Assembly: GCF_026126405.1 (NCBI RefSeq)
Contig: NZ_JAFMTQ010000001.1
Coordinates: 194,610-258,609 of the forward strand
Reading direction: 5' to 3'
DNA length: 64,000 bases
From: Aureitalea sp. L0-47
GTDB lineage: Bacteria; Bacteroidota; Bacteroidia; Flavobacteriales; Flavobacteriaceae
Shown here piece by piece: positions 1-61,857 of the stretch. The notes under the pieces are model-generated. The model made no database searches, had not been told where the DNA came from, and was given only the letters and a program-made list of their open reading frames with translations. A program made the translations under genes and the position numbers. Each line of letters begins with the position of its first letter. Positions within the stretch are counted from its first letter, which is position 1.

Positions 1-319
1 TAAGGCAACGACTTCCATGGAATTCCTTTTACAGGGAACTCAAACGATCAATAACCAGGTCATTAACCTGATAGATGTTGAAGAATTCGACGACAATGCC
101 ATCTTTTTCAGAGGAGGCGCCGGTTTGAGCTATCCGCTAACCGAGAACAGCAGCGTATACCTTCAGTACCTGTACGGTGAAAGTCTTGGATTGAATGATG
201 ATAATGGTGGCAGTACCAGTCAGGAAGAACTGCGAATTCAAACACATATGGTTGGTATCGGGATGCGTATCTCGATTCCTTCAAAGAAAGATGAAGAACA
301 AATCGATTCAGAAGAATAA
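1..319 (+). CDS. C-terminal fragment of an outer-membrane beta-barrel-like protein (gene begins left of window)
   Basis: Reading frame is open to the window edge. The alternating hydrophobic/polar segment (GGAGLSYPLTENSSVYLQYLYG) is typical of OMP beta strands. It ends with an acidic tail. Confidence 0.35.
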   Translation, partial: KATTSMEFLLQGTQTINNQVINLIDVEEFDDNAIFFRGGAGLSYPLTENSSVYLQYLYGESLGLNDDNGGSTSQEELRIQTHMVGIGMRISIPSKKDEEQIDSEE

Positions 320-331
320 AAGGAATTACTT

Positions 332-3300
332 ATGAAAAAATTAACCCTACTTTTCGTATTGCTGGTAAGCACATTTATCGCTTCGGCTCAGACAGACGGT
401 CTTAGCTATCAGGCGGTGATACTAGATCCTGAAGCACAGGAAATTCCGGGACAGGACATCACCAATAATGTGCTTATCAATAGTCCTGTTACAGTTCGTT
501 TTACAATTCTGAAACGCGACGGAACAACGCTTTACAGCGAAACTCAAAACACAAACACCGATTCTTTCGGAATGATTAGTCTAATCATTGGACAGGGAGC
601 TCCTACCAATGGTTTGTTTACCGAAATAGAATGGGATGGAGTGCCCAAAAACCTGCAGGTCGACATCAGCCTGGATGGTAATTTTAAACTGCTGAACAAA
701 GAGCCGTTAACATTTATACCATATGCTTTTCACCGAAATATTACAGCTACAGGAACATTGAGAGTGGATGGGGAGACGCTTCTTAATGATAACCTGGTGG
801 TTAATGGGGAAACCATTCTGAACGATGCTTTATCGGTAAATAATGAAAGCCCTTCAAACTTTACAGGGACCTTAGTGGTTGGTGGAACAACAACGCTGAA
901 CAATTCCCTGTCTGTGATAAACGAGAGCCCAACATTACTTACTGGAACACTTGATGTGGATGGAGCTACCCGACTTAACAGCACGCTGAATGTAGAAGAT
1001 GCTACTCAACTAAACAGTACACTTACGGTGGATGGGGAATCTACCCTGAATAGTTCACTTACTGTGGCAAATGAGAGCGCTACTTTTCTGTCGGGGTCAC
1101 TAACTGTAATTGGTGTTACCGACCTCAATAACGCAGTGAACATTAATAACGGGAGTCCTTTGAATGTAACAGGTAATCTGAATGTGGACGGTTCAACCAC
1201 ATTGAACGATGATCTAACCGTTAATGGAGACACCAATCTTAATAGTTTATTAAATGTAAACAATAGTAGCCCTTCGAATTTATCCGGAACATTGGATGTA
1301 GATGGAGCCACGACGCTGGGGAGTAGTTTACAAGTGCTTGGGCAGACCAACCTCGAGGATTTGCTTAATGTAAACAACCAAAGCCCAACCAATCTTAGCG
1401 GTAGTCTTACTGTAGATGGAGATACTAATTTGAATAGCAGTTTATCTGTGAACAATGGCGCACCTACATTCCTTTCAGGAACTTTGGACGTGCTTGGAGC
1501 GATCACTCTAAATAACAATCTCACCGTAAACGGTGTGACCAATCTGAATGACGATTTATTTGTAAATAACCAAAGTGCTACTTTTCTTTCCGGCAACTTG
1601 AATGTGGAAGGGGCAACGAGTTTAGATGATATACTCATCGTTCAAGGTGAAACAACCCTGCAAGATGATCTAACTGTGGCTAATGGGTCTTCGACTTTAC
1701 TTACTGGCTCACTCGATGTTAATTTGGAAGCCACATTGAACAACTCGCTGGACGTTACCAATGAAAGCCCAACCACATTAACCGGAACACTTAACGTAGA
1801 CGGTGAAACGACCTTGAATAATAATTTGGAAGTTGCAAATCAAAGCCCTACTGCATTAACAGGAACCCTAACCGTTGAGGGTATAAGTTCATTCTTGAAT
1901 TCGGTGAATGTTGAAAATCAAAGCCCCACGAATATGTCGGGGACATTAACAGTAGAAGGCGAAACCTTCCTTCGTAACACTCTCAACGTGAATAACCAAA
2001 GTGAATCCAACCTCGACGGAGATCTCAACGTAAATGGAGTTGCAACCTTCGATGACCAGGTAACCATAAACGGAGCAACCACCATCAACAATGATATGAC
2101 GGTTACAGGTACTGCTTTATTGGGTAGCATTTCTACTGAAACCATCGCGGTGGAGAGTAATAATTCAGGTTATGTGGCGACGTTTACCAACACAAACGCC
2201 GGAAACGGTGATGGAATACTTATCAAACTTGGGCGTAACTATGGCCTAAATGGAATTACTCCTTTACCAAATCCTTACCTTGATCAGGGTCCGAATGCAA
2301 ATCCGCTTTACTCAGAGGCAATTGCGCTGATGAAGGCCCAACTAGCCAGTCCCGGAGATATAACCCCGGCAGAGATCATAGGTGGTTTTGGTACGAGCGT
2401 AAATAACTTAAGGAGCGGTGCAATAGTAGCTGTGAACGATTTTGTTTTCAACCAGATAAATGGTTCGTTCGGAATGACGCCCACTAATGGAATAGACTTG
2501 CCGGGTGTATCTTTTCCGGTAACCAATATTCTTCAGGGGGCACAGATCTTTGGAGGTGTGACTATTCCTTTTGTAGGTATTACCATACCCGAAATAAATT
2601 TACCAAGTATAGACATTCTCCCGCAAAAACCAGGATTGCCTCCGGGTGTTTTGAATGCCGTAGTGCCGGATTTCATTCCCGGACTGCCTGTTTCACCTAA
2701 TAACGGCGGGCTGCCTCCGGTAACCATTCCGTTCATCCCGGCAGATGATGTGCCTATCTCGTTGTCTAAAGAGAATGTTTACGTCTCGTTCCGTGACACC
2801 AACGACCTGATCACAGGAGAGATCCGAGGCCAGTCCATCAGTGACTTTTATGCTTCCACAGTTTGTGACCCGGTATACTTACTGAATGTTGTTAGCTCGT
2901 TTGTTGGAGTCGATCTTCTGGATGGACTTACGGCAGGTGCTGTGGAATTAACCAACCTGGTTGATGCCTTTAATAAAATTGGAGTAGAGTACTCTTCCGG
3001 AAATGGGGATTACGCAGAATGGCTTGAACGACTTGACCCTTCCGAATACCTAACTGCAGGAGATATTGTTGCAGTAAAGGGAGGAAAGATAACAAAGGAC
3101 CTAAACGAACTAGAACAGATCATGGTAGTCTCACACAGGCCTATCATTCTTGGAAATGTGCCGGAAGAAGGAAAAGAAGGACTAGGTAACAACGTTGCAT
3201 TTATGGGACAAGTTCCTGTAAAAGTAATGGGGCCGGTGCGCTCCGGTGATTTCATTGTGGCACGAGCCGACATCTCCGGTTATGGTAAAGCGATTGCCTT

Positions 3301-3541
3301 GCAGGATATGACCTCGGAGGATTTTGTACTTGCTGTGGGTAGATCGTGGGAAGAAAACCTCAACCCTGGACCGAAGATGGTCAACACTGTTGTAGGTGTA
3401 CATAATGGTGACTGGGCCAATATCATGAAAAAACTTGAAGCCAAACAACGCTCTTACGAACAAAAGTTCAGGGCAATTGAGGCCCAGGTGGAAGCTTTGG
3501 AAGACAGAGCAGATGAATTGCTAATAGAATCCAATAAATAA
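332..3541 (+). CDS. Large secreted beta-helix-like repeat protein (fibre/adhesin-like), paralog 1
   Basis: Signal peptide MKKLTLLFVLLVSTFIASAQ. About 38 degenerate units of pattern L-x-V-x-G-x-T-x-L-N (12/12/14 aa periodicity). Pro-rich linker. Conserved ~260-aa C-terminal module ending in a heptad coiled coil. Confidence 0.85.
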   Translation: MKKLTLLFVLLVSTFIASAQTDGLSYQAVILDPEAQEIPGQDITNNVLINSPVTVRFTILKRDGTTLYSETQNTNTDSFGMISLIIGQGAPTNGLFTEIEWDGVPKNLQVDISLDGNFKLLNKEPLTFIPYAFHRNITATGTLRVDGETLLNDNLVVNGETILNDALSVNNESPSNFTGTLVVGGTTTLNNSLSVINESPTLLTGTLDVDGATRLNSTLNVEDATQLNSTLTVDGESTLNSSLTVANESATFLSGSLTVIGVTDLNNAVNINNGSPLNVTGNLNVDGSTTLNDDLTVNGDTNLNSLLNVNNSSPSNLSGTLDVDGATTLGSSLQVLGQTNLEDLLNVNNQSPTNLSGSLTVDGDTNLNSSLSVNNGAPTFLSGTLDVLGAITLNNNLTVNGVTNLNDDLFVNNQSATFLSGNLNVEGATSLDDILIVQGETTLQDDLTVANGSSTLLTGSLDVNLEATLNNSLDVTNESPTTLTGTLNVDGETTLNNNLEVANQSPTALTGTLTVEGISSFLNSVNVENQSPTNMSGTLTVEGETFLRNTLNVNNQSESNLDGDLNVNGVATFDDQVTINGATTINNDMTVTGTALLGSISTETIAVESNNSGYVATFTNTNAGNGDGILIKLGRNYGLNGITPLPNPYLDQGPNANPLYSEAIALMKAQLASPGDITPAEIIGGFGTSVNNLRSGAIVAVNDFVFNQINGSFGMTPTNGIDLPGVSFPVTNILQGAQIFGGVTIPFVGITIPEINLPSIDILPQKPGLPPGVLNAVVPDFIPGLPVSPNNGGLPPVTIPFIPADDVPISLSKENVYVSFRDTNDLITGEIRGQSISDFYASTVCDPVYLLNVVSSFVGVDLLDGLTAGAVELTNLVDAFNKIGVEYSSGNGDYAEWLERLDPSEYLTAGDIVAVKGGKITKDLNELEQIMVVSHRPIILGNVPEEGKEGLGNNVAFMGQVPVKVMGPVRSGDFIVARADISGYGKAIALQDMTSEDFVLAVGRSWEENLNPGPKMVNTVVGVHNGDWANIMKKLEAKQRSYEQKFRAIEAQVEALEDRADELLIESNK
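740..2132 (+). repeat. Intragenic degenerate tandem repeats (36-42 nt units) encoding LxVxGxTxLN beta-helix-like turns
   Basis: Protein-level periodicity is read directly. The region also generates many spurious antisense ORFs rich in S/T/P/V. Confidence 0.6.
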
Positions 3542-3550
3542 GGAGCTGTT

Positions 3551-6500
3551 ATGAAAAGATTTCTAATAATCATAGTCATATTGTCTGGAATTAGCGGACT
3601 GGCTCAAACCGACGGGCTTGTCTACCAGGCAACTATACTCGATCCAAATGCACAGCAGGTCCCTGGTCAGGATATCACAGGGAATGTGCTTCCTGATACA
3701 GACCTTTTACTTCGCTTCACGGTTACATCCGAGTTAAACGGAGTTGAATTTCAGGAAGTACAGGAAACCAGAACCGATGCCTATGGAATGGTGAAAGTGA
3801 TCATCGGGCAGGGAGATGCCGTTATAGGAAATTTTGATGAAATCGATTGGAACGGAGCTCGCAAAGACCTAAATGTCGATCTCAATCTAAATGGAGAATT
3901 CGTGGCGCTGAGTAGTCAGCAATTATTATTTCTGCCGTATTCCTTCCACCGAAATATTACTGCTACCGGAACCGTAACTGTGGACAGGGATGCTTTGTTC
4001 AAAGACAGGCTTGTGGTAGATGGAGTGACAGACCTGAATGGTTTGCTTAGTGTTCGAAACTTTAGCCCCGTAGACCTTACAGGCTCCATGGAAGTTGGAC
4101 TTCCCACCACCTTGAAAGATTCATTGTTGGTGAACCAGGAGGCGCCTACTTTTCTAAATGGGACTTTAAGAGTAGATCAGGAAACACAACTAAATAGTAC
4201 CCTTGAGGTTGGGGAAGCCACGAGACTGGCAAGTACATTGGAGGTCACCGAAGCAACGGTAATGAATGATAACTTAAAAGTTACCCAGCAAAGCCCAACG
4301 CTTCTAACCGGGACACTTGAAGTTGACGGGATTACTAATTTTAATAATACCGTTAATATCAATAATGGAAGTCCTCTGAATTTATCCGGTGATCTTACCG
4401 TAGACGGAGAAGTGATCTTTGATAATGACCTAACTGTTCAAGGCGATACGAATCTGAACAGCTCCCTTTCGGTGAATAATATGAGTCCCACAAATTTGTC
4501 GGGAACATTGAATACGAGTGGACAAACCACTTTGAATGATGTGTTGTTGGTAAATGGTGCAACCAATCTGGACAACCTGTTGAACGTTAATAACGCAAGT
4601 CCAACCAACCTTTCAGGAACACTCACTGTAGACCTGGCAACCAACCTCAACAGTGCATTGAATGTAAACAATGGGAGCCCTACTTTGCTTACCGGGCCAT
4701 TGAATGTGAATGGTGAGATCGACTTCGGAAATGACCTTGAAGTGAACGGCATCACAAATCTCAATGACGAGCTTATTGTTAATAACGGTAGTGCTACCGC
4801 ATTATCCGGAAACTTGAATACGGATGGAGAAACAGCATTGAACAGTACATTAGAAGTGGTAGGGACGACTACTTTGAATAATGACCTTACAGTTGCCGAT
4901 CAATCCAGTACAGTTTTATCGGGTATGCTCACGGTGGATGGTCCTAGTACATTCAATGTTTCATTGGATGTTGAGAATTCAAGTCCAACAGGCTTAAACG
5001 GACGTCTATCGGTAGATGGAATCACTACATTTCAGAATGATCTTACCGTAGCCAATACGGCATCATCATTATTTACAGGGGAGTTCGTTGTGGATGGCGT
5101 ATCCACCATGAATAATGAACTAAGAGTCGATAATTCGGCCCAAACAAAGCTTACCGGGCTGTTGGATGTTGAAGGAGTGACAGCGTTGAATAACGCGTTG
5201 AATGTTACGAATGGTAATACTACAAACATGTCAGGGGAACTAAACGTGGCTGGGTTGAGTACCTTTAATAATCTGGTAAACATTTCCGGATTTACATTTA
5301 TTCAAAATGATCTTACGGTTACCGGATTGTCCGATATACGAACGCTTCAGGCAGGTTCGATCTCAATTGAAAGTGACTCGGCCGAATTCGTCGCATCTTT
5401 TTCAAACACCAGTGATTTTACAAACGGAGATGGTATAAAGATCACTTTGGGGAATAATCACGGAAGATTTCTAAACGGTGGTGTGTTCAAAATAGACCAA
5501 ACCCTTGTGAGTAACGACCCGGGAGCACAGAATCCACCCCCAGCTACAGATCCAACTTATGTTACGGCTTTCAATACCTTAAAGCAGGCACTCGTAAATA
5601 ACTCACCTCAGTTTTCAGTGAACGATGTGATCGCCTTACTACCATCTTTCCGAAATTATTCGATAGCCAATATTAACAACCTGTTACTTCAGGAGATAAA
5701 TGCCCAGTTAGGCCTTCCTAAGAATTTACCCAGTGTTGTTTCACCTTCATTCTTCATAGATCAGGTTATACCTCCGGGAAGTCCATCACTTTCATTGCCG
5801 TTAACTGTATTCCCCGGAATTAATGGGGCGTGTTCGGGGCAATCGTGCTTTAGTGTATGTGTTCCTTTTGCAGGCTGTGTGACGGTTTGTGTACCACCCG
5901 TAAATGTATGTGTGCCGGATATTCCTCCTTTGGTAATCCCTGAACTCTTTGCACCTGCGCTTACGCTCCAGGGAACCATTCCAAATTTCTTACCATCCCT
6001 ACCGTTTCTGCAGGAACCGGGTATACCTTCTGTGCTGATTCCAAATATACCCACAGTGAATATTACTGAAACCCTGTCTTCGGAAAATCACTATTTAACT
6101 TTCCAGGATGTGAATGATGTTCAAACGGGAGCGGTAAAAGCACAGTCCATCGAAGATTTTGCCAATAATACACTTTTGGATGACGTATATGTCTTCAATG
6201 TGGCAAGTAATTTTATAGGAATTGATCTTGCCGATGGAATTTCGAGTGGAGCTTCCGCCATAGTAGGATTGATTAGTGAATTCAACAAATTAGGAGTTGA
6301 ATACGCATCAGGAAACGGAGATTATTCAGAGTGGTTGGAGCGAGTTGATGTAAACGAATATCTGACTGCTGGTGACATCATTGCCGTAAAAGGTGGAAAG
6401 ATAACAAAGGATTATAATGGGTACGAACAACTGATGATCGTTTCCCACAGGCCCATTGTACTTGGGAACGCACCCCAGAAGGGAAGGGAGCATTTAGGAA

Positions 6501-6865
6501 ATACCATTGCCTTTATCGGACAAGTTCCTGCCAAGGTAATTGGGCCGGTAAAACGCGGTGATTATATCGTTGCGAGAAGCGAGTTCCAAGGCTATGGTGT
6601 AGCTGTAAGCCCTTCGGAAATGACAACTGAAGACTTCAGAATGGCTGTAGGAAGATCCTGGGAAGAAAACCTGAATCAAGGCCCAAAGATGGTTAACACA
6701 GTTGTCGGAATTCAGAACGGTGACTTCAGGTCACGAGTTGAAAAGCTTCAGAAAGAACAACGGCAATTAGACAATTCAATAGAAACCTTAGAATCGAAAT
6801 TAGAGCGAATTGCCCAAAAGCTATCGCTTTCAGAAAATAGCAATGATTATGCGAGTAACAAATAG
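3551..6865 (+). CDS. Large secreted beta-helix-like repeat protein, paralog 2, with Cys-rich VCVP insert
   Basis: Signal peptide MKRFLIIIVILSGISGLAQ. Same three-part architecture as 332-3541. The N-domain (TDGLxYQAxILDP...PYxFHRNITATGT) and C-domain (SGNGDYxEWLER...GDIxAVKGGKITKD...VGRSWEENLN) align closely with paralog 1. Confidence 0.85.
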   Translation: MKRFLIIIVILSGISGLAQTDGLVYQATILDPNAQQVPGQDITGNVLPDTDLLLRFTVTSELNGVEFQEVQETRTDAYGMVKVIIGQGDAVIGNFDEIDWNGARKDLNVDLNLNGEFVALSSQQLLFLPYSFHRNITATGTVTVDRDALFKDRLVVDGVTDLNGLLSVRNFSPVDLTGSMEVGLPTTLKDSLLVNQEAPTFLNGTLRVDQETQLNSTLEVGEATRLASTLEVTEATVMNDNLKVTQQSPTLLTGTLEVDGITNFNNTVNINNGSPLNLSGDLTVDGEVIFDNDLTVQGDTNLNSSLSVNNMSPTNLSGTLNTSGQTTLNDVLLVNGATNLDNLLNVNNASPTNLSGTLTVDLATNLNSALNVNNGSPTLLTGPLNVNGEIDFGNDLEVNGITNLNDELIVNNGSATALSGNLNTDGETALNSTLEVVGTTTLNNDLTVADQSSTVLSGMLTVDGPSTFNVSLDVENSSPTGLNGRLSVDGITTFQNDLTVANTASSLFTGEFVVDGVSTMNNELRVDNSAQTKLTGLLDVEGVTALNNALNVTNGNTTNMSGELNVAGLSTFNNLVNISGFTFIQNDLTVTGLSDIRTLQAGSISIESDSAEFVASFSNTSDFTNGDGIKITLGNNHGRFLNGGVFKIDQTLVSNDPGAQNPPPATDPTYVTAFNTLKQALVNNSPQFSVNDVIALLPSFRNYSIANINNLLLQEINAQLGLPKNLPSVVSPSFFIDQVIPPGSPSLSLPLTVFPGINGACSGQSCFSVCVPFAGCVTVCVPPVNVCVPDIPPLVIPELFAPALTLQGTIPNFLPSLPFLQEPGIPSVLIPNIPTVNITETLSSENHYLTFQDVNDVQTGAVKAQSIEDFANNTLLDDVYVFNVASNFIGIDLADGISSGASAIVGLISEFNKLGVEYASGNGDYSEWLERVDVNEYLTAGDIIAVKGGKITKDYNGYEQLMIVSHRPIVLGNAPQKGREHLGNTIAFIGQVPAKVIGPVKRGDYIVARSEFQGYGVAVSPSEMTTEDFRMAVGRSWEENLNQGPKMVNTVVGIQNGDFRSRVEKLQKEQRQLDNSIETLESKLERIAQKLSLSENSNDYASNK
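3959..5321 (+). repeat. Intragenic degenerate tandem repeats (same family as 740-2132)
   Basis: Same LxVxGxTxLN periodicity as paralog 1. Confidence 0.6.
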
Positions 6866-7439
6866 AATATATACTTTCCTGCTTGTTGGTTTCCTTATGA
6901 TGGGAACTGCAAGGTCTCAGGAAACTACCGAAGGATATACTTTTTCAAAAGAAGAACTGGCGCAGCTAAAATTGCAGAAGGAAAAGATGGATGAATGGAT
7001 AACCGTGCTGGAGACTCCTGGTGTTCGAATTGAGGGTAGTAAAATGATCTTCAGTGATGAAGCACAGAAGCTTATTAGCGATCACAACTACAGGATTAGT
7101 TGTTATCGTGAAGCCGGATATACATTTGCAGATGTGCAGGTAAGTTTGCAAAACAACGAATTACAAAAGGCTTTCTGGCAAATGATCAACCTGTATCCCG
7201 ACCACAAAGAGGAAGTATTGAAATACATATATGCCTACGACAATGTATTGCAAACGGATAAGGTGGTGACGGCTGCTTTTTACACCTATGGCTTTTTCGA
7301 CCCGGCAATAACTAAAATAGATAATGGAAGACCGGATGTATATCGCCCGGACCTCTTTGAAGGGCATTTGAAAAGTACCCGTGAAATCGTTTCGTACATA
7401 CTCTATTTCCGCAAGCAGAAAGAGCAGAAGCAAATTTAA
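6843..7439 (+). CDS. Small secreted hypothetical protein, start overlapping the end of paralog 2
   Basis: Signal-peptide-like MIMRVTNRIYTFLLVGFLMMGTARSQ. Overlaps the upstream stop codon by ~20 nt, so it is likely co-transcribed. An alternative start is at 6810. Confidence 0.55.
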   Translation: MIMRVTNRIYTFLLVGFLMMGTARSQETTEGYTFSKEELAQLKLQKEKMDEWITVLETPGVRIEGSKMIFSDEAQKLISDHNYRISCYREAGYTFADVQVSLQNNELQKAFWQMINLYPDHKEEVLKYIYAYDNVLQTDKVVTAAFYTYGFFDPAITKIDNGRPDVYRPDLFEGHLKSTREIVSYILYFRKQKEQKQI

Positions 7440-7500
7440 ATTAGCTAACTAATCAATATAGCCCAGGACCCGGCAGCTTTGTAGAATCTGTCGGGTTTTT

Positions 7501-8655
7501 TTAATAGCCAAAGTCTTCCTTGATCCTATCCGCTTTATCCAGCATAAGATCCACGGTGATAAAGTCTACCTCCTCCTTGTCGAAGGCACCCTGAAAGGTA
7601 CGCATGGCCTTTTTGGGTTCCCCTGTTTCCTCATAGAACCTGGCCATGTAATAGTCTCCCAGCACCGTATCCGGATATTGTCGTTGTGCCATAGAAGCGA
7701 TCTCACGAAGTGATTCCCATTGTTTCTTCTTTTCGGCGGCAGTTGCGGTTGCTATGAAATCGTTGATACGAATCGGGTTGCTAAGACCAAAAAGGTCTTC
7801 GATGGTCATGTATTTATCCTGAAGGTAATGGTGGACAGGAGTTTCCAGTTTCATGATTACATCGGAGTACTCCTGTTTGCTGATGGGACGGTACACAGAA
7901 AAGATCTTTTCCATGGCAGAGGGAATGGCCCTAGCCACCAGGGAATAGTGCGTGGCTCCTTCAAAATTGTCGTAATAGAATTTAAAACGATCCGAGTCCA
8001 GTGGTTTGAGTGATTTATTCAAATTCTCGCTTATCGCCATGAGGTCCTGGATGTCGTCTGTTCCTGTGGCCAGGTAATAAAATATCTTCGATTCGATAGA
8101 GGGGATGCGCTCAGGCAGCCGTTCGTCCATCATAGGAGCCAGGTCCGGGCTAAGGCTGATATACCCATTGAACAATGGCGGATCCTTAAAGAGATAATAG
8201 TTGATAAAATTGGCAGTAAAATCGTGCCCTACTGCGATTACGAATTTCGCGGTTCTGTAGTTGTCATCGATATATGGAATAAGTTCAAGCCCTACGAATT
8301 CGAAAAAATCAGCACCCTGGTCCGCAGGCATGAAGTTAGTGTCGTCGTAATTACAGTCGTCGTATCGTCCATCTCCCTGCATTACGCCCACTACGATACA
8401 TTCCGGCATATCTTCCCAATAAGCGAAATAATCTACATTTCCTGCTACAGGTTCGAAGAGGTAGTTTGCGTCCAGGACGATCACAATGGGGTAGGACTTC
8501 TCAACATTAGCTTCGTAATCCCTTGGGAGTTGAATTTTCAACCGTCGTGTGTCGTCCAGTTTATAAGAAGTAAATTCTTCATAAATAACTTTAGATTGGG
8601 CAAAGGCGTTAAAACTCAGGATTATGGTAAACGCCAGGGTCAGCAGTTGCTTCAT
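7501..8655 (-). CDS. Secreted esterase-fold (alpha/beta hydrolase) protein with C-terminal TPR-like region; nucleophile elbow reads GHDFT
   Basis: Signal peptide. The YPIVIVLDANY and VIAVGHDFTANF segments resemble the putative-esterase family. Confidence 0.45.
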   Translation of the reverse strand: MKQLLTLAFTIILSFNAFAQSKVIYEEFTSYKLDDTRRLKIQLPRDYEANVEKSYPIVIVLDANYLFEPVAGNVDYFAYWEDMPECIVVGVMQGDGRYDDCNYDDTNFMPADQGADFFEFVGLELIPYIDDNYRTAKFVIAVGHDFTANFINYYLFKDPPLFNGYISLSPDLAPMMDERLPERIPSIESKIFYYLATGTDDIQDLMAISENLNKSLKPLDSDRFKFYYDNFEGATHYSLVARAIPSAMEKIFSVYRPISKQEYSDVIMKLETPVHHYLQDKYMTIEDLFGLSNPIRINDFIATATAAEKKKQWESLREIASMAQRQYPDTVLGDYYMARFYEETGEPKKAMRTFQGAFDKEEVDFITVDLMLDKADRIKEDFGY

Positions 8656-8705
8656 AAGATAGGAAGTTTTGGTCCTGAAAGATAGTAAATTTTGAAAATG
8701 CCAGC

Positions 8706-9677
8706 CTAGTTAACTTCCTTCTTTCGATTATAGACGGGTAATAGGAACAAGGACAATAGCCCAAAGAAAACTATGGAAATAATATTCGATGTCCATACGA
8801 TCACCCCAAAGGCAAGTCCGGCCGATTTCGCTATTCCAAAGATCAGCAGAATACCCATAATGGCTGCAGGATAGGTTCCAAATCCGCTATTGGTAAACGC
8901 AAAGGTGAAACTACCCACAACAAAGGTTATTATGATAATACCTGCGGAGAAGTTGGAAGTTTCATCCAGTGCTTTTGTGGCAACATAAAAGGATGCTACA
9001 TATAATGCCCAAATGACAAAGCTTAGCAAAATGAAAAGTCCTTTTTTCTTCATCTTGACAATACTGAAAAGCCCTTCTTGAAGTCCGCCCAGAAAAACTT
9101 TAATCTTTTTAGCGAATGCGCCTTTTGATCGTTTTACAAAAACCAGGAAAACAGTGGTCAGTATTGCCAATGCAACTAAAGCAATGATCATTTTCTTTAT
9201 TGGAATGGTTGCGTTTATATAATCGTATAAAGCATCGAATTGCATCAACAATGCGGTCAGTGTGAACAGCCCTAGAAAGAACAGGTCCACGACCCGTTCC
9301 GATATGATAGTGCCAAACCCTTTATCGAAAGGAATACCTTCGTATTTGGAATGAATCACTGCCCGGGAAACTTCACCGCTTTTAGGGATGAATAGGTTCA
9401 TCAGATAGGCAACTGATACGGCCATGAAATTATTGGCCAGTTTGGGATGATATCCCATAGGCTCGAGCATCAGGTTCCAGCGATACGCCCTCATGAGATG
9501 ACTGAGAACACTAAGCCCCACCGAAAATGCCACGATCCAGTAATCTGCTTCCTTGAAATGAGTATATGTTTGCTCGAGCTGTTCGGGTGTGAACAAGTTG
9601 TAAATATACCATAGCAGGAATCCTCCCAATGCCAGCGGGATGGCAACTTGCAGGAATCTGGAAAGGGATTTATTCAA
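8706..9677 (-). CDS. UPF0104 / lysylphosphatidylglycerol-synthase-TM-like integral membrane protein
   Basis: About 8 predicted TM helices. The N-terminal motif is typical of the flippase-like domain family. Confidence 0.55.
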   Translation of the reverse strand: MNKSLSRFLQVAIPLALGGFLLWYIYNLFTPEQLEQTYTHFKEADYWIVAFSVGLSVLSHLMRAYRWNLMLEPMGYHPKLANNFMAVSVAYLMNLFIPKSGEVSRAVIHSKYEGIPFDKGFGTIISERVVDLFFLGLFTLTALLMQFDALYDYINATIPIKKMIIALVALAILTTVFLVFVKRSKGAFAKKIKVFLGGLQEGLFSIVKMKKKGLFILLSFVIWALYVASFYVATKALDETSNFSAGIIIITFVVGSFTFAFTNSGFGTYPAAIMGILLIFGIAKSAGLAFGVIVWTSNIISIVFFGLLSLFLLPVYNRKKEVN

Positions 9678-49082: not shown

Positions 49083-49606
49083 AAATAGTTTTTTTCGGTC
49101 CGGAATCTACTGGAAAGACTACCCTGGCAACTGAACTGGCGAGGTATTTCAATACCGAATGGGTCCCTGAGTTTATGCGTGACTACCTTCAGGAAAAGTG
49201 GGATGAAAAAGGGGAGAAAATAGGCTGGGAAGATCTCATACCTATCGCCCGGGGCCAGATAGCTTCAGAAAATAACAAAGCTCAAAAAGCGAATAAAGTA
49301 CTCTTCTGCGATACCGATCTCAGGGAACTACAGGTGTACTCAGAATATTACAATAACGGTAAGTGCCCTTCCGAAATAAGAAAGGCGGTTGAAGCCAATC
49401 ATTACGACTTGTATTTTCTTACCTTCGTGGATACACCTTGGGTGGCGGACGACTTACGCGATAATCCTGAAGACCGATTGGGCATATTTCGTAATTTTGA
49501 GAACGAATTGAAATCGAAAGGACTTCCTTATCACTTACTGCGGGGAAGCAAAGAAGAGCGCATAAAAAGCGCTATTGAATTAACTGAAAAATTAGTAGGG
49601 AGATAA
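49043..49606 (+). CDS. NadR-C-terminal-type P-loop kinase (ribosylnicotinamide-kinase-like AAA_28 domain) without HTH or NMNAT domains
   Basis: KIVFFGPESTGKTTLATELA Walker A and LFCDTDL Walker B. Overlaps the PnuC-type gene's 3' end in another frame. Confidence 0.7.
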   Translation: MEETLRQAPANCLKIVFFGPESTGKTTLATELARYFNTEWVPEFMRDYLQEKWDEKGEKIGWEDLIPIARGQIASENNKAQKANKVLFCDTDLRELQVYSEYYNNGKCPSEIRKAVEANHYDLYFLTFVDTPWVADDLRDNPEDRLGIFRNFENELKSKGLPYHLLRGSKEERIKSAIELTEKLVGR

Positions 49607-51135
49607 TGTTAACTGAAAAAGATCTGCAACAATTAAAGGATCACGGAATATCACTTCAAACCATCTATAGACAATTAGAAACCTTCTCCCTGGGTATCCC
49701 TCCTGCTGATATTGTGACCGCCGCCTCCGTAGGCAATGGAATTGAGGTTATTCCTGAAGACAAACATCAAAAACTCATTGACCTTTACGAGGAAAGTAGA
49801 AACACGCTGGATATCGTAAAATTTGTCCCTGCCTCAGGTGCAGCTACCAGAATGTTCCAGTTCCTTCATAATTTCCTGGAGGAATACGATCCTGCAACTG
49901 AAACTCTTAAAGAGTATTTAAATCGTTGTCCTTCTTCAGCGCTGGAAAAATTCATAAAGCACTCGAAAGAATTCGCCTTTATAAACGAAGTGCGAAAAAT
50001 GATTCGTAAAAACTATCCGGAATACAAGAAGAACAGTAAAGGACAGCGAATGTATTGGTTCGTGAAGATGATGCTCGAGCCCGAGGGTTTGAACTTTTCC
50101 AATATGCCTAAGGGTCTTATTCCGTTTCACAAGTATTCGAAATATTATACCACAGCTTTCGAGGAACAATTGTTTGAAGCAGCCCATTATGCATCAGTAC
50201 ATGACGATGCTTATTTGCATTTCACGTTTTCAGAAAAACATGTGCCCTATTTCAAGCAGGCTTTTGAAACGATTCGCAAGCGTGTTGGTAAGAAAACGAA
50301 AACCGATTTCCATATTTCTTATTCCTTTCAGAAAAAAGAAACGGATACCCTGGCTGTAACTGAGGACAATATGCCTTTTCGCGATTCGGAAGGGAAATTG
50401 GTGTTACGACCCTCAGGTCATGGTGCACTACTGGAAAACCTGAACGATGTTGATACCGACATCATCTTCGTCAAGAATATAGACAATGTCGTAGCTGAAG
50501 ATTATTTAGAAGACACCATTTATTACAAAAAACTACTGGCTGGTAAGCTGATCTGGATTCAGAAAAAAGTATTTGCTTATCTCAACATCCTGGAGCAGGA
50601 TGAAGTTGAACATGAAGTTGTAAAGGAGATTCGGTCCTTCCTTTGGAATGAATTGAGCATTAAAGACATTCCTGAAGACCAGGATCGCCTTATGGGTATA
50701 CTCAATAGACCTATTCGAATCTGCGGCGTTGTGAAAAATACCGGTGCACCCGGCGGAGGACCATTCTGGGTGAAGAGCGAAGATGGAAGGGTGAGCCTTC
50801 AAATCGTGGAAAAGTCTCAAATAAATATGGACGATCCCCATATGGAAGCCACAGTGAACGATGCCACACATTTCAACCCGGTAGATATTGTTTGTGGAGT
50901 CCGGGACTATAAAGGCGTGAAATTCGATCTTAAATTATTTAGCGACCCCCGAAGCGGTATTATTTCCATGAAATCTGATGGAGGTACACCGGTGAAGGCG
51001 CTCGAACTTCCCGGCTTGTGGAATGGTGGAATGGCTAACTGGAATACAGCTTTCGTGGAAGTTCCACTCGAGACCTTCAATCCTGTTAAGACAGTTAACG
51101 ACCTGCTCCACAGGGAACATCGTCCTAACGCCTGA
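49606..51135 (+). CDS. DUF4301-like protein with UDPGP-type nucleotidyltransferase-like motifs
   Basis: VPASGAATRMF (compare GGxGTRLG) and RPSGHGALLENL (compare PdGnGG). About 509 aa. The ATG overlaps the kinase gene's stop. Confidence 0.4.
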   Translation: MLTEKDLQQLKDHGISLQTIYRQLETFSLGIPPADIVTAASVGNGIEVIPEDKHQKLIDLYEESRNTLDIVKFVPASGAATRMFQFLHNFLEEYDPATETLKEYLNRCPSSALEKFIKHSKEFAFINEVRKMIRKNYPEYKKNSKGQRMYWFVKMMLEPEGLNFSNMPKGLIPFHKYSKYYTTAFEEQLFEAAHYASVHDDAYLHFTFSEKHVPYFKQAFETIRKRVGKKTKTDFHISYSFQKKETDTLAVTEDNMPFRDSEGKLVLRPSGHGALLENLNDVDTDIIFVKNIDNVVAEDYLEDTIYYKKLLAGKLIWIQKKVFAYLNILEQDEVEHEVVKEIRSFLWNELSIKDIPEDQDRLMGILNRPIRICGVVKNTGAPGGGPFWVKSEDGRVSLQIVEKSQINMDDPHMEATVNDATHFNPVDIVCGVRDYKGVKFDLKLFSDPRSGIISMKSDGGTPVKALELPGLWNGGMANWNTAFVEVPLETFNPVKTVNDLLHREHRPNA

Positions 51136-60061: not shown

Positions 60062-60114
60062 CATAAATGTCTCAAAATAGCCGTATATTCGTGAACCAAA
60101 ATAAAATTGTTGAA

Positions 60115-61857
60115 ATGAAGCGTTATTACCCCCTCTTTTTACTTTCAGTCCTCTTTGGATTGTTTTCTTCACTTTCCTTTGCTCAGGAAACAAACGTGTT
60201 ACCTGCGAATCTCACAGAAGGTGAGCGTTCCATAATTTCAGAATATAATTTTACTGGGAATAGATTTACACCCCCTCCAACGGGACCTGTGAGGGCAGCT
60301 GCTGAATGGGAAGAAGTTGAGTACTTACTCATTACCTGGCAGCCGAATTTTCCGAACATCCTTCGACAAATAGTCGAGGCTGCCATCGAGGAATGTAAAG
60401 TGATCATCACTACAGAGGATGAGACTTCAGTAGCCAATTACCTCCAGTCCAACGGGGTTGATCTTACCAATGTGATCTTTATGGATGAACCCTTCAACAG
60501 TATCTGGATTCGCGATTATGCCGGGAATACCATCTATTCGGATGATGTGGGTGAACGAGCGTTGACAGACTGGATCTATAACCGACCTCGGCCTTTGGAC
60601 AATATAATGCCTTCTGCTCATGCGGCCTTGGTAGGAATGCCTATCTATATTACAGACACGGCACCGAACGACCTTGTGAATACAGGTGGTAATTATATGT
60701 CGGATGGGCACGGGAATGCATTTGCTTCAGAATTGGTTCTAAATGAGAACGCCGCAGGTAACCCTTACGGAGTTACCGCAAAAACTGAAGCGCAGATAGA
60801 CGGCATCATGCAACAGTACATGGGTATCGACACCTATATCAAGATGACTCCACTGCCTTTCGATGTTATCAACCATATCGATATGCACATGAAGCTTCTC
60901 GATGAAGAAACACTATTAGTGAGTAAGTACCCCGAAGGTGTGGCTGACGGACCACAGATCGAACAGAACATTGATTATGTACTTGCTAATTTTCAATCGG
61001 CTTTCGGAACACCTTTTCGTGTGAAGCGAATCGATGCACCACCGAGTTCGGGAGGAGCCTATCCTGATACGGGAGGATACTACCGAAATTATACTAACGC
61101 AATATTTATTAATAAAACCATCTTGATCCCGTTGTACCGACCGGAAGTTGACGGTCCGGCTTTGGCTCAGTGGCAGGAAATGATGCCTGGATACAATATT
61201 GTTGGGATCGATGTAGATAATCCTGGTGAAAACCTTATCGCTCTTGTGGGTGCCATCCACTGTATTACTCATACCATTGGTGTGGCAGATCCGCTTTGGA
61301 TAGTGCATCAACCGGTATACCAGGCAAACATCAATACCAATGTAACCCTGGATGCCACGGTGAAGCATATTTCCGGAGTGAGTGATGTGGATGTATTCTG
61401 GCGCGAGGTGGGCAGTGCCAACTGGATTGAAACAGCCATGACCAATGTTTCAGGCGACAACTGGACCACAGATTTGTCAATTGGAAACGATGATGTTGAA
61501 TATTATATCGAGGCAGAGGCAAATTCCGGTAAAGTGCTTGCACGTCCAATTGTTGCTCCCGATGGTTACTGGACGATCAATACTGAGATCCTGGCCACCA
61601 CTGATCTCGCTGCTAACAATATTTCAGCACCGTTTCCTAATCCAACCGACGGTTCAGTTTCTTTCACTTTGAATAATTTAACAGGACTTATCAATGTCAC
61701 GGTTCACAATATCATGGGTCAGGAATTGATGCGTGAAGAACTTCAGAATGGCAACGGAACCTTTACCTTAGGTCTTAATCCTCAATGGAAGGGAACGCTA
61801 TTTGTAACTTTTGAAGGGGACTTTGGTCGAGCTACGAAAAAAGTGATAAAAATATAA
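60115..61857 (+). CDS. Secreted agmatine-deiminase/Porphyromonas-type peptidylarginine deiminase (PAD) family enzyme with Ig-like domain and T9SS type-A C-terminal sorting domain
   Basis: Signal peptide. WIRDYAGN (WxRD) and the catalytic Cys in GAIHCITHT. C-terminal ~80 aa (FPNPTDGSVSF...VTVHNIMGQEL...KKVIKI) is a T9SS C-terminal sorting domain. Confidence 0.75.
   Translation: MKRYYPLFLLSVLFGLFSSLSFAQETNVLPANLTEGERSIISEYNFTGNRFTPPPTGPVRAAAEWEEVEYLLITWQPNFPNILRQIVEAAIEECKVIITTEDETSVANYLQSNGVDLTNVIFMDEPFNSIWIRDYAGNTIYSDDVGERALTDWIYNRPRPLDNIMPSAHAALVGMPIYITDTAPNDLVNTGGNYMSDGHGNAFASELVLNENAAGNPYGVTAKTEAQIDGIMQQYMGIDTYIKMTPLPFDVINHIDMHMKLLDEETLLVSKYPEGVADGPQIEQNIDYVLANFQSAFGTPFRVKRIDAPPSSGGAYPDTGGYYRNYTNAIFINKTILIPLYRPEVDGPALAQWQEMMPGYNIVGIDVDNPGENLIALVGAIHCITHTIGVADPLWIVHQPVYQANINTNVTLDATVKHISGVSDVDVFWREVGSANWIETAMTNVSGDNWTTDLSIGNDDVEYYIEAEANSGKVLARPIVAPDGYWTINTEILATTDLAANNISAPFPNPTDGSVSFTLNNLTGLINVTVHNIMGQELMREELQNGNGTFTLGLNPQWKGTLFVTFEGDFGRATKKVIKI

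What the first reader, a model, noticed from the sequence alone, without database searches (positions are those of the whole stretch)
332..6865. Tandem pair of ~1,100-aa secreted paralogs built from 12/12/14-residue beta-helix-like repeats: an unassigned fibre/adhesin family
Two adjacent genes, 10 nt apart, encode proteins with the same three-part plan. Each has a conserved ~115-aa N-domain after the signal peptide (TDGLxYQAxILDP...PYxFHRNITATGT) and a ~450-aa array of degenerate L-x-V-x-G-x-T-x-L-N units. The repeat units group as 12+12+14 residues, consistent with a three-faced beta-helix or triple beta-helix. A Pro-rich linker and a conserved ~260-aa C-module with a terminal heptad coiled coil (…KKLEAKQRSYEQKFRAIEAQVEALEDRADELL) follow. 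Neither protein has a recognisable T9SS C-terminal domain, LPXTG motif or autotransporter barrel. The coiled-coil end and repeat geometry suggest a trimeric fibre, like phage tail fibres or trimeric adhesins. I could not match any part to a named domain. A partial OMP beta-barrel gene lies immediately upstream (1-319).
Basis: partly seen in the sequence, partly recalled or inferred. Interest (0 to 1): 0.75.

Follow-up and report, generated by a model that had tools for sequence, protein, structure and literature searches.

The report
Self-cleaving cell-surface fibre gene pair
Two adjacent genes of a marine Flavobacteriaceae-type bacterium encode long, phage-tail-fibre-like proteins that most likely assemble as trimers and then cut off their own C-terminal folding aid; they belong to a large, experimentally unstudied Bacteroidota fibre cassette resembling the prey-recognition fibres of Bdellovibrio.

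Summary
In detail: two ORFs (332-3541, 1069 aa; 3551-6865, 1104 aa), 48% identical, share one plan. "No named domain" does not hold.

- **N-domain:** a beta-sandwich that weakly matches the Bdellovibrio MAT fibre N-domain. It heads more than 22,000 protein clusters with mosaic C-termini.
- **Repeat array:** 36 units of 12 or 14 residues in mixed order, not a strict 12/12/14.
- **Cassette:** small T9SS-CTD protein, OMP barrel (optional), one or two fibres, then a ~195-aa protein. It recurs across Bacteroidota. The upstream pair goes with the N-domain and the downstream ORF with the G2 module.
- **A versus B:** array lengths match within genomes. Two genomes have A and B identical except for a tip block and the coiled coil.

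Verdict: a new variant of a known kind. Trimerisation, cleavage, surface display and ligand are all inferred.

The parts
1..319 (+). 3' part (last ~100 codons) of the OMP beta-barrel gene of the cassette. The gene is cut by the window edge.
   Evidence: It aligns with the C-terminal half of 223-228-aa orthologues in L001-L003. The L003 orthologue hits PF13505 OMP_b-brl at E 1.3e-9. It lies 12 nt upstream of fibre A.
332..3541 (+). Fibre A precursor, 1069 aa (A-class).
   Evidence: ORF. More than 1000 homologs with the same plan.
332..388 (+). Fibre A Sec signal peptide (res 1-19). Predicted signal peptidase I cut at A19|Q20.
   Evidence: Read directly from the sequence. A19 and Q20 are nearly invariant or invariant in the family. 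This fits the Bacteroidetes Q-rule (PMC5837995).
389..754 (+). Fibre A N-domain (res 20-141): a seven-stranded beta-sandwich and the proposed cell-proximal anchor.
   Evidence: AF2 pLDDT is 79, with the core above 90. NF053851 Bdello_MAT_N hit at E 2.4e-7, or 3.7e-5 without the signal peptide. The profile finds 22,750 cluster representatives.
758..2131 (+). Fibre A repeat array (res 143-600): 36 units of 12 or 14 residues, the proposed beta-helical shaft.
   Evidence: Autocorrelation and unit chaining. phrog_697 phage structural protein at E 1.9e-24 and phrog_4549 tail fibre.
2132..2731 (+). Fibre A post-array segment and Pro-rich variable block (res 601-800), the proposed distal specificity region.
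   Evidence: Res 641-800 are only 24% identical to B, with indels, and 15% Pro. The homologous block is one of two segments that differ between otherwise identical paralogs in L006 and L007.
2732..3007 (+). Fibre A conserved pre-cleavage segment (res 801-892), ending ...SSGNG892.
   Evidence: 49% identical to B. AF2 predicts strands plus helices, at low confidence.
3008..3412 (+). Fibre A Peptidase_G2-like beta-tulip autochaperone core (res 893-1027), starting D893-Y-A-E896. The predicted scissile bond is G892|D893.
3413..3538 (+). Fibre A C-terminal heptad helix (res 1028-1069), A-class coiled coil. Predicted to leave with the chaperone fragment.
   Evidence: AF2 predicts a helix. 9 of 12 a/d positions are hydrophobic. 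The A-class sequence is conserved across genomes.
3551..6865 (+). Fibre B precursor, 1104 aa (B-class). Signal peptide is res 1-18 (cut A18|Q19), N-domain res 19-140, array res 142-603.
5360..6040 (+). Fibre B post-array and Pro-rich variable block (res 604-830). It holds all six Cys of the protein, within GACSGQSCFSVCVPFAGCVTVCVPPVNVCVP.
   Evidence: Cys-containing inserts are also the B-specific feature in L006 and L007.
6320..6724 (+). Fibre B Peptidase_G2-like autochaperone core (res 924-1058), starting D924-Y-S-E927. The predicted scissile bond is G923|D924.
   Evidence: 70% identical to A over this core. Local hmmsearch with A3 gives E 8.8e-83. The motif is invariant.
6725..6862 (+). Fibre B C-terminal heptad helix and tail (res 1059-1104), B-class coiled coil ending ...DYASNK.
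   Evidence: The B-class is conserved in L006 and L007 (...NYASKN).
6843..7439 (+). ORF C: a 198-aa signal-peptide protein of unknown fold, overlapping the end of fibre B by 23 nt. It is a partner specific to the G2 module.
   Evidence: Orthologues in all six inspected loci are 38-51% identical, with 38 invariant columns. It follows the fibre in 75/78 genome loci. It is absent downstream of three non-G2 N-domain fibres. No Pfam, NCBIfam or PDB match.

Best explanation
A and B are precursors of two paralogous cellular (not phage) fibres, built like phage tail fibres and like the MAT fibres of Bdellovibrio.

Proposed steps, with their basis:
1. Each chain is exported by Sec and cut at A|Q. This is read from the sequence.
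2. In the periplasm the C-terminal module nucleates a trimer. The module is a paralog-specific heptad coiled coil plus a Peptidase_G2-type beta-tulip autochaperone. It templates folding of the 36-unit beta-helical shaft. This is inferred from homology to phi29 gp12.
3. After trimerisation the chain cuts itself at G892|D893 (A) or G923|D924 (B), using the invariant Asp and Glu. This releases a ~177-181-aa fragment that includes the coiled coil. The motif and fold are shown; the cleavage itself is inferred.
4. The mature fibre keeps three parts: the N-terminal beta-sandwich as the cell-proximal anchor, the shaft, and a distal tip made of the post-array segment, the variable Pro-rich block (Cys-rich in B) and a conserved neck. 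The variable block is proposed to set ligand specificity, so A and B would be two specificities on shafts of equal length.
5. The cassette partners divide the work. The small T9SS-CTD protein and the OMP barrel, which track the N-domain, would serve surface display or anchoring. ORF C, which tracks the G2 module, would serve maturation or disposal of the chaperone fragment. This is inferred from co-occurrence only.
For: **C-module is a G2-type autochaperone**
- PF11962 is hit by 22/22 C-modules, best E 1.5e-6, and is precomputed on several homologs.
- BFVD Foldseek gives 21 hits at E <= 1e-3, including entries named preneck appendage protein and tail fibre.
- hhalign aligns GDYAEW to gp12 S691-D692-F-A-E695.
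- 3gqh is 163 residues long, which equals gp12 692-854. The released fragment therefore starts at the aligned Asp.
- The Dpo31 tailspike chaperone domain aligns its SDYAEYFE to the same motif.
- Asp and Glu are invariant in 120/120 homologs and 99/99 genome hits.

**Cellular, not phage**
- Both proteins have signal peptides.
- The flanks are housekeeping genes and the synteny is conserved.

**MAT-like logic**
- NF053851 is hit by 20/22 N-domains.
- The N-domain is always N-terminal, in 22,750 clusters.
- It is fused to collagen, YadA-head, Lcl_C, Fib_succ_major, fn3 or G2 modules.
- The MAT definition is taken from PMC10769870.

**Division of labour among partners**
-.

**Tip and coiled coil as the A/B determinants**
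-.
Against: - Nothing here shows a trimer. Only monomer AF2 was available, and the C-module model is mediocre (mean pLDDT 61.6).
- The window proteins score below Pfam's gathering threshold for PF11962 (17-22 bits against 25). The profile match covers only positions 45-95 of 228.
- The residue before the Asp is Gly, not Ser as in gp12 and Dpo31.
- By my recollection of Xiang et al. 2009, gp12 needs ATP to release its chaperone. The periplasm has no ATP.
- The MAT_N match is far below NCBI's cut-off (31 bits or less against 60). It covers about a third of the model and is absent for protein B once the signal peptide is removed.
- No route across the outer membrane is evident, and surface exposure is assumed by analogy.
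- Matched array lengths could result from episodic gene conversion alone.
Confidence: 0.7

Rival explanations
1. The C-module is a permanent trimerisation or interaction domain (beta-tulip plus coiled coil) that is not cleaved. The mature fibre would then end in the coiled coil.
For: - P1 is Gly rather than Ser.
- The Pfam score is below the gathering threshold.
- There is no ATP in the periplasm.
Against: - G-D-Y-A/S-E-W is invariant across 120 homologs and 99 genome hits. Such conservation fits a catalytic site aligned exactly to the gp12 cleavage site.
- The highest sequence identity among the fold hits is to the gp12 autochaperone, not to decoration proteins.
Confidence: 0.13
2. The fibres are periplasmic or envelope-internal structural elements, such as spacers tied to the OMP barrel, rather than surface adhesins.
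For: - They carry only a Sec signal and no recognisable outer-membrane export signal.
- An OMP partner lies adjacent.
- Shaft lengths are strictly matched between paralogs within a genome. This would suit a ruler or spacer role.
Against: - The OMP is missing from 32 of 59 cassettes.
- The universal upstream partner carries a T9SS CTD, so it is itself exported to the surface.
- Bdellovibrio MAT fibres, whose N-domain model is weakly matched here, are surface-displayed (PMC10769870).
- A hypervariable tip block suggests interaction with diverse external ligands.
Confidence: 0.1
3. These are prophage, tailocin or contractile-injection-system tail-fibre genes resident in the chromosome.
For: - The array hits phage PHROGs (phrog_697, phrog_4549).
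- The C-module resembles phage fibre chaperones.
Against: - Both proteins have Sec signal peptides with the Bacteroidetes A|Q junction.
- No phage genes are found anywhere in the 64-kb window.
- The same cassette sits between the same housekeeping genes in several genera. It also recurs in 78 species with non-phage partners.
Confidence: 0.03
4. A and B co-assemble into one heterotrimeric fibre (A2B or AB2), not two separate homotrimers.
For: - The unit pattern is identical, with zero indels over ~457 aa, despite only 55% identity.
- Whole-unit indels between genomes are always shared by both paralogs.
Against: - Single-fibre cassettes are the majority, 57 of 78, so homotrimers must work.
- In L006 and L007 the coiled coil stays different between otherwise identical paralogs. 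This fits a sorting code that keeps the chains apart.
- Gene conversion, seen directly in L006 and L007, can also equalise lengths.
Confidence: 0.12

Closest known systems
Bdellovibrio bacteriovorus MAT (mosaic adhesive trimer) chimeric fibres (Caulton et al. 2024, PMC10769870; NCBIfam NF053851)
   Same: - Signal peptide, then a conserved ~120-130-aa beta-rich N-domain with no specific PDB homologue.
- A long repeat-built fibre of about 1000 aa.
- A C-terminal self-processing chaperone in many members, and mosaic C-terminal modules across the family.
- Loop motifs with a conserved Pro: MAT V-G-G/N-pi-x-x-P-x-x-x-L against V-x-N-x-S-P-x-x-L-x-G here.
   Different: - The phylum is Bacteroidota, and the host is not a known predator.
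- The chaperone is of the G2 (DxxE, beta-tulip) type, not S74 (SDxxxK).
- The N-domain matches the MAT model only weakly (31 bits or less against a cut-off of 60).
- It sits in a dedicated cassette with a small T9SS-CTD protein, an OMP barrel and ORF C.
- An extra C-terminal coiled coil occurs in two paralog-specific classes.
Phage phi29 gp12 pre-neck appendage (tailspike) C-terminal autochaperone; MEROPS G2 / Pfam PF11962; PDB 3gqh, 3suc
   Same: - A C-terminal beta-tulip domain follows a beta-helical fibre.
- The S/G-D-[YF]-A-E-[WY] motif aligns at the gp12 cleavage site S691|D692, with E695.
- The released fragment is of similar size, 163 aa against 177-181 aa.
   Different: - This is a cellular, Sec-exported protein, so folding and cleavage would occur in the periplasm without ATP.
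- P1 is Gly, not Ser.
- An additional ~40-aa heptad helix is present at the C-terminus.
- There is no teichoic-acid-degrading enzymatic domain.
Peptidase S74 / ICA intramolecular chaperone domains (K1F endosialidase, T5 pb1, MyRF)
   Same: The overall logic is the same: a C-terminal trimerisation chaperone that cleaves itself off a triple-beta-helix fibre and ends in helices. Some database entries label homologs as 'Peptidase S74 domain-containing'.
   Different: There is no SDxxxK Ser-Lys dyad and no PF13884 hit at E <= 1. The fold hits are to beta-tulip/G2 structures, not to S74 structures.
Trimeric autotransporter adhesins (YadA family) and T9SS adhesins (SprB-like)
   Same: They are long repetitive surface fibres. 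Some relatives of the N-domain family carry YadA-head repeats.
   Different: There is no YadA membrane-anchor barrel and no T9SS C-terminal domain in cis. The NCBI name 'autotransporter outer membrane beta-barrel domain-containing protein' given to homolog P0011 is not supported by any profile hit here.

Membership tests
Peptidase_G2 intramolecular-chaperone autocleavage domain (PF11962 / MEROPS G2) | Profile match at or above Pfam's gathering score (25 bits) | tested here: inconclusive
   Window A scores 17.4 bits as a whole protein and 21.9 bits as the isolated module. B scores 11.6 bits. All 22 family C-modules match at E <= 0.01, best 1.5e-6. Several homologs carry a precomputed PF11962 hit.
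Peptidase_G2 intramolecular-chaperone autocleavage domain (PF11962 / MEROPS G2) | Asp at P1' and Glu three residues later, at the position of gp12 D692 and E695 | tested here: met
   hhalign aligns D893/E896 (A) to D692/E695. D and E are invariant in 120/120 and 99/99. That these residues are catalytic in gp12 rests on my knowledge of Xiang et al. 2009 and MEROPS G02.001. I could not read that paper here.
Peptidase_G2 intramolecular-chaperone autocleavage domain (PF11962 / MEROPS G2) | Beta-tulip fold of the gp12 C-terminal fragment | tested here: met
Peptidase_G2 intramolecular-chaperone autocleavage domain (PF11962 / MEROPS G2) | Autocatalytic cleavage after trimerisation | not testable with these tools
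   This needs expression with SDS-PAGE and mass spectrometry, or native proteomics.
MAT (mosaic adhesive trimer) fibres, NF053851 | N-domain match at or above NCBI's cut-off (60 bits) | tested here: not met
   Window A scores 25.7-30.7 bits with the signal peptide and 23.6 bits without it. B gets no hit. 20/22 family N-domains match at E <= 0.01, best 6.3e-10.
MAT (mosaic adhesive trimer) fibres, NF053851 | Signal peptide followed directly by a conserved ~130-aa beta-rich domain with no specific PDB homologue | tested here: met
MAT (mosaic adhesive trimer) fibres, NF053851 | One N-domain combined with varied C-terminal tips or chaperones (mosaicism) | tested here: met
   Among 41 sampled N-domain proteins: Lcl_C 7, Collagen 5, fn3 5, Fib_succ_major 4, YadA_head 2, Peptidase_G2 2, and others.
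MAT (mosaic adhesive trimer) fibres, NF053851 | Trimeric intertwined beta-helix along the fibre, and surface display | not testable with these tools
   No multimer prediction was available and there is no experimental data. The only support is indirect: a trimer-specific chaperone type, a coiled coil, and collagen and YadA relatives.
Peptidase S74 / ICA domain | SDxxxK catalytic motif and a PF13884 match | tested here: not met
   No PF13884 hit at E <= 1. No conserved S-D-x-x-x-K is present in the C-module alignment.
T9SS cargo (type A or type B CTD) | C-terminal sorting domain (PF18962 / TIGR04183 or the type B CTD) | tested here: not met
   A and B get no hit at E <= 1. The CTD is found on a separate small protein encoded upstream in relatives.
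Trimeric autotransporter adhesin | C-terminal YadA-like membrane-anchor barrel | tested here: not met
   No such Pfam or NCBIfam hit. The C-terminus is a beta-tulip plus a helix.

The most novel reading that the evidence does not exclude
The cassette may export its fibre through the type IX secretion system using a sorting signal supplied in trans. The fibre's own C-terminus is taken up by an autochaperone that is cut off, so it cannot carry a T9SS C-terminal domain. A small (~165-aa) dedicated partner has a ~55-aa conserved head (…RQGFIQPP) and a type-A CTD. It is encoded directly upstream of essentially every N-domain fibre examined. It would bind the N-terminal beta-sandwich and carry the folded trimer through the SprA translocon, or anchor it on the surface. 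In addition, the two conserved classes of terminal coiled coil would act as a sorting code that keeps A and B chains in separate homotrimers, even when their shafts are identical.
Probability: 0.2. Interest if true: 0.8.

Novelty: new variant of a known kind. Interest (0 to 1): 0.58.

Why it matters
**Breadth.** Phage-style self-cleaving trimeric fibres used by cells themselves have been characterised in Bdellovibrio (PMC10769870). My literature searches found no description of this cassette in Bacteroidota. Here the same design appears across that phylum. The N-domain alone heads about 22,750 protein clusters at 50% identity.

**Differences from the Bdellovibrio case.** The chaperone is of a different type (G2, not S74). 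The fibres come with fixed partners: a small T9SS-CTD protein, an OMP barrel and a protein of unknown fold.

**Questions this opens.**
- What do abundant marine and soil Bacteroidota recognise with these fibres: particles, algae, prey, phage decoys or kin?
- How does a folded trimer with only a Sec signal reach the surface?
- How does a G2 autochaperone, which needs ATP for release in phi29 (by my recollection), work in the ATP-free periplasm?

**Tractability.** Several cultured type strains carry the cassette, including Flavobacterium xanthum, F. gillisiae, Maribacter algarum, Dokdonia sinensis and Spirosoma flavum. The paralog pairs that are identical apart from a tip block and a coiled coil mark out where specificity and chain sorting probably reside.

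Tried and rejected
- **PDB sequence searches.** phmmer of both full proteins found nothing useful. Profile searches with the whole C-module found only generic coiled coils such as HA2 and GCN4. The N-domain profile found nothing. The ORF C profile found nothing significant.
- **AlphaFold DB fold search.** The afdb50 library was not available, so I could not test structurally whether Bdellovibrio MAT N-domains match.
- **Reading Xiang et al. 2009 on phi29 gp12.** The paper is not held. The cleavage site was reconstructed instead from the phi29 genome record and the length of the 3gqh chain.
- **Literature searches.** Searches for Peptidase_G2, Dpo31, G2-type chaperones on cellular fibres, and T9SS piggyback export gave no relevant paper. 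The MAT paper's supplements do not mention Flavobacteria or Bacteroidetes.
- **Promoter and terminator scan of 1-8800.** Counts were at or below the shuffled expectation, so it says nothing about operon structure.
- **Exact look-up of window protein A.** It is not on record. The source genome is therefore unidentified. The closest relatives are 90% (P0001) and 79% (P0002) identical.
- **Rejected readings.**
  - S74 membership: no motif and no profile hit.
  - T9SS cargo in cis, TAA and LPXTG: no signals.
  - Prophage origin: signal peptides and housekeeping context.
  - Bactofilin, a source's name for one homolog: incompatible with a signal peptide. It only reflects beta-helix repeat similarity.
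  - Strict 12/12/14 three-faced monomeric helix: the unit order is irregular.
- **tRNA and Rfam scans of the window.** Both found nothing.

Full report
**1. The observation**

The two ORFs are real. A is 332..3541 (1069 aa) and B is 3551..6865 (1104 aa). Both are on the + strand, 9 nt apart. They are 48% identical end to end.

Per-region identity between A and B:

| Region (A residues) | Identity | Note |
|---|---|---|
| N-domain (20-140) | 53% | |
| Repeat array (141-600) | 55% | no gap column over 460 columns |
| Pro-rich block (641-800) | 24% | with indels; 15% Pro |
| Pre-cleavage segment (801-892) | 49% | |
| C-module core (893-1027) | 70% | |
| Terminal helix (1028-1069) | 20% | heptad pattern kept: 9 of 12 a/d positions hydrophobic in both |

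The array periodicity is strong. Autocorrelation peaks fall at lags 26, 38, 64 and 76.

Chaining the L-x-V anchors resolves 36 units, about 23 of 12 residues (L-x-V-x-G-x-T-x-L-N-x-x) and 13 of 14 residues (L-x-V-x-N-x-S-P-x-x-L-x-G-x).

**2. The C-module is a phage-type self-cleaving autochaperone**

- Pfam gives a sub-threshold hit to PF11962 (Peptidase_G2, IMC autoproteolytic cleavage domain) on both proteins. All 22 C-modules of a diverse family alignment hit it, best E 1.5e-6. Several homologs carry it as a precomputed domain.
- An AF2 model of the module has mean pLDDT 61.6. Its beta core scores 75-85, and it has a long terminal helix.
- Foldseek against viral predicted structures gave 21 hits at E <= 1e-3. 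They include entries named preneck appendage protein and tail fibre.
- tblastn against phages found a virion structural protein of PA5oct-like Pseudomonas jumbo phages, 33% identical, E 2e-4.

I took gene 12 from the phi29 genome record. Its translation reads ...GGNTW-S691-D692-F-A-E695-Y-F-E.... Chain 3gqh has 163 residues, which equals 692-854, so the released fragment begins at D692.

hhalign aligns the family's invariant G-D-Y-A-E-W to S-D-F-A-E-Y. A solved tailspike chaperone domain (Dpo31 D4) aligns its S-D-Y-A-E-Y-F-E to the same place. The Asp and Glu are invariant in 120/120 homologs and 99/99 genome-locus hits.

By homology, self-cleavage is predicted at G892|D893 in A (nt 3007/3008) and G923|D924 in B (nt 6319/6320). 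The released fragments would be 177 and 181 aa.

That gp12 uses D692 and E695 for cleavage, and needs ATP for release, is from my knowledge of Xiang et al. 2009 (Mol Cell 34:375) and MEROPS G2. I could not read that paper here.

There is no S74 signature. PF13884 is not hit and no SDxxxK motif is conserved.

**3. The N-domain and the link to MAT fibres**

NCBIfam's only hit is NF053851, [quoted passage not shown]. For A it scores E 8.5e-6. 20 of 22 family N-domains hit it, best 6.3e-10.

Without the signal peptide, 6 of 7 still hit (A at 3.7e-5, B not). All scores are far below the curated cut-off, and the match covers only about a third of the model.

That paper defines MATs by four features:
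- a signal peptide;
- a conserved ~130-aa beta-rich N-domain;
- a trimeric intertwined beta-helix fibre;
- either an S74 chaperone/protease or a varied adhesive tip.

MATs are displayed on the predator surface.

An exhaustive profile search with the N-domain found 22,750 cluster representatives at E <= 1e-3, and 10,327 at E <= 1e-10. The domain is always at the N-terminus, on proteins of about 400-1290 aa.

A Pfam scan of 41 of these proteins showed mosaic downstream modules: Lcl_C, collagen triple helix, fn3, Fib_succ_major, YadA head, Peptidase_G2, DUF5649, BppL_N and others. Several of these are obligate trimer formers.

The window proteins therefore work like MATs. Strict membership is not shown.

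**4. The genes belong to a conserved cassette**

In Aureisphaera, Rasiella and Constantimarinum, and in the closest metagenomic relative (79% identity), the order is:

histidine kinase, response regulator, ~1350-aa HYR/T9SS-CTD protein, ~165-aa T9SS-CTD protein, ~225-aa OMP_b-brl, fibre A, fibre B, ~195-aa ORF.

This is followed by the same esterase, LPG-synthase, panD, panC and glgA genes as in the window. The window starts inside the OMP gene, so the upstream parts are cut off.

Three more distant loci, with different flanks, keep the core: small CTD protein, OMP, one or two fibres, ORF C. All the components are homologous.

A pattern scan of one genome per species found 156 relatives of the G2 core across Flavobacteriales, Cytophagales, Chitinophagales, Saprospiraceae, Sphingobacteriales and Bacteroidales.

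Local profile searches on 78 of these loci gave the following:
- ORF C follows the fibre in 75 loci.
- The small CTD protein lies upstream in 55 loci.
- One fibre is present in 57 loci and two in 21.
- The OMP lies between the CTD gene and the fibre in 27 of 59 cases. It is absent, with a gap of 7-150 nt, in 32 of 59.

Three N-domain fibres with non-G2 C-termini have the small CTD protein (E 1e-48 to 1e-50) and the OMP (E 1e-61 to 1e-67) upstream, but no ORF C.

So the upstream partners track the N-domain, and ORF C tracks the G2 module. ORF C has no match in Pfam, NCBIfam or the PDB.

**5. What distinguishes A from B**

Array lengths are matched within each genome and differ between genomes:

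| Locus | Array length, A / B (aa) |
|---|---|
| window | 457 / 457 |
| L001 | 505 / 504 |
| L002 | 483 / 485 |
| L003 | 445 / 445 |
| L006 | 289 / 289 |
| L007 | 429 / 429 |

The unit order is shared by the two paralogs of a genome.

In the window and L001-L003, A and B are uniformly diverged, at about 50-65% nucleotide identity, with no conversion patches. A-to-A identity across genomes (57-67%) exceeds A-to-B identity within a genome (54-59%).

In L006 and L007, A and B are identical even at the nucleotide level, apart from three or four isolated substitutions and two segments:
- **A ~90-115-column block in the Pro-rich region.** Here B carries a Cys-containing insert. The window's B likewise holds all six of its Cys there, while A has one Cys in the whole protein.
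- **The coiled coil right after HNGDW.** It falls into an A-class and a B-class. Both classes are recognisable in the window pair.

Concerted evolution therefore spares only the tip block and the coiled coil. My inference is that the tip block carries specificity and the coiled coil sorts the chains. Matched shafts could reflect conversion, a structural requirement, or both.

**6. Rivals**

- A prophage origin is very unlikely. Both proteins have signal peptides with the Bacteroidetes A|Q junction (PMC5837995). The 64-kb window holds no phage genes. The chromosomal synteny is conserved.
- An uncleaved C-module, a periplasmic rather than surface location, and A/B heterotrimers all remain possible. 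Each is scored in the rival explanations.
- How the fibre crosses the outer membrane is unknown. I found no precedent for a T9SS CTD supplied in trans.

**7. Verdict**

The sequence observation is confirmed. The "unassigned family" claim is replaced by this reading: a Bacteroidota MAT-like fibre with a phi29-gp12-type (G2) self-cleaving autochaperone, embedded in a conserved cassette.

This is a new variant of a known kind. It has no experimental characterisation that I could find. It also raises concrete, testable questions about export, periplasmic chaperone release and ligand specificity.

**Shown here**
- the domain architecture;
- the motif and its invariance;
- the fold similarity;
- cassette conservation and the logic of the partners;
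- the pattern of paralog divergence.

**Inferred**
- trimerisation;
- cleavage;
- surface display;
- the roles of the partners;
- the function of the tip.

Noticed in passing
window 5810-5905 (fibre B residues ~754-785): B has a Cys-rich insert, GACSGQSCFSVCVPFAGCVTVCVPPVNVCVP, holding all six Cys of the protein. A has a single Cys in total. B-type paralogs in L006 and L007 also carry Cys-containing inserts at the same place. This suggests disulfide-stabilised tips specific to the B class.
   Followed up: partly
L006:7001-12390 and L007:7001-13223: The tandem fibre genes are 100% identical at the nucleotide level over the N-domain, the array and most of the C-module. They differ sharply in one Pro-rich block and in the terminal coiled coil. 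This is a clear case of gene conversion (or recent duplication) with two protected segments.
   Followed up: yes
window 6843-6865: The probable ATG start of ORF C (6843) overlaps the last 23 nt of fibre B. The same kind of overlap, about 8-30 nt, is seen in five of the seven related loci inspected (L001-L003, L006, L007, L090). This suggests translational coupling.
   Followed up: partly
window 250-319 and orthologues in L001-L003: The cassette's OMP barrel does not end in the usual aromatic C-terminal residue. It ends in an acidic, Glu/Asp-rich tail (for example ...SKKDEEQIDSEE) after the last predicted strand.
   Followed up: no
L003:6797-7297 and homologues (L001, L002, L005-L007, L086-L088, L090): The small T9SS-CTD partner has a short conserved head of about 55 aa with an invariant Q-G-F-I-Q-P-P motif (R-Q in 5 of 6) and a G-x-S...Y...G-Q..(V)I-G pattern. 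This head has no Pfam family (only the CTD is recognised).
   Followed up: partly
L001, L003, L090 upstream of the cassette (outside the window): In L001, L003 and L090 a ~1350-aa HYR-domain T9SS cargo sits directly upstream of the cassette, preceded by a HisKA_3 histidine kinase and a GerE-type response regulator. In Rasiella (L002) the kinase and regulator are also upstream but the HYR protein lies downstream of the cassette. This may be a regulatory or functional unit with the fibres.
   Followed up: no
H1-H11 (for example NC_071039.1 45787-46119): PA5oct-like Pseudomonas jumbo phages encode a virion structural protein (annotated in one record as 'baseplate wedge subunit and tail pin'). Its segment is 33% identical to the fibre's G2 core, including the cleavage-motif region.
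   Followed up: no
L041 (CAZBWO010000019.1): One G2-core hit lies in a MAG labelled 'uncultured Alteromonas sp.', the only non-Bacteroidota label among 78 loci. It is probably a mis-binned contig rather than horizontal transfer.
   Followed up: no
window 60067-61857: A 596-aa ORF matches Porphyromonas-type peptidyl-arginine deiminase (PF04371, E 1.9e-31). It is longer than the 321-position Pfam model, so it carries extra sequence on both sides.
   Followed up: no
window 49606-51135: A 509-aa ORF is a full-length, very strong match to DUF4301 (E 1e-197), a conserved family of unknown function.
   Followed up: no
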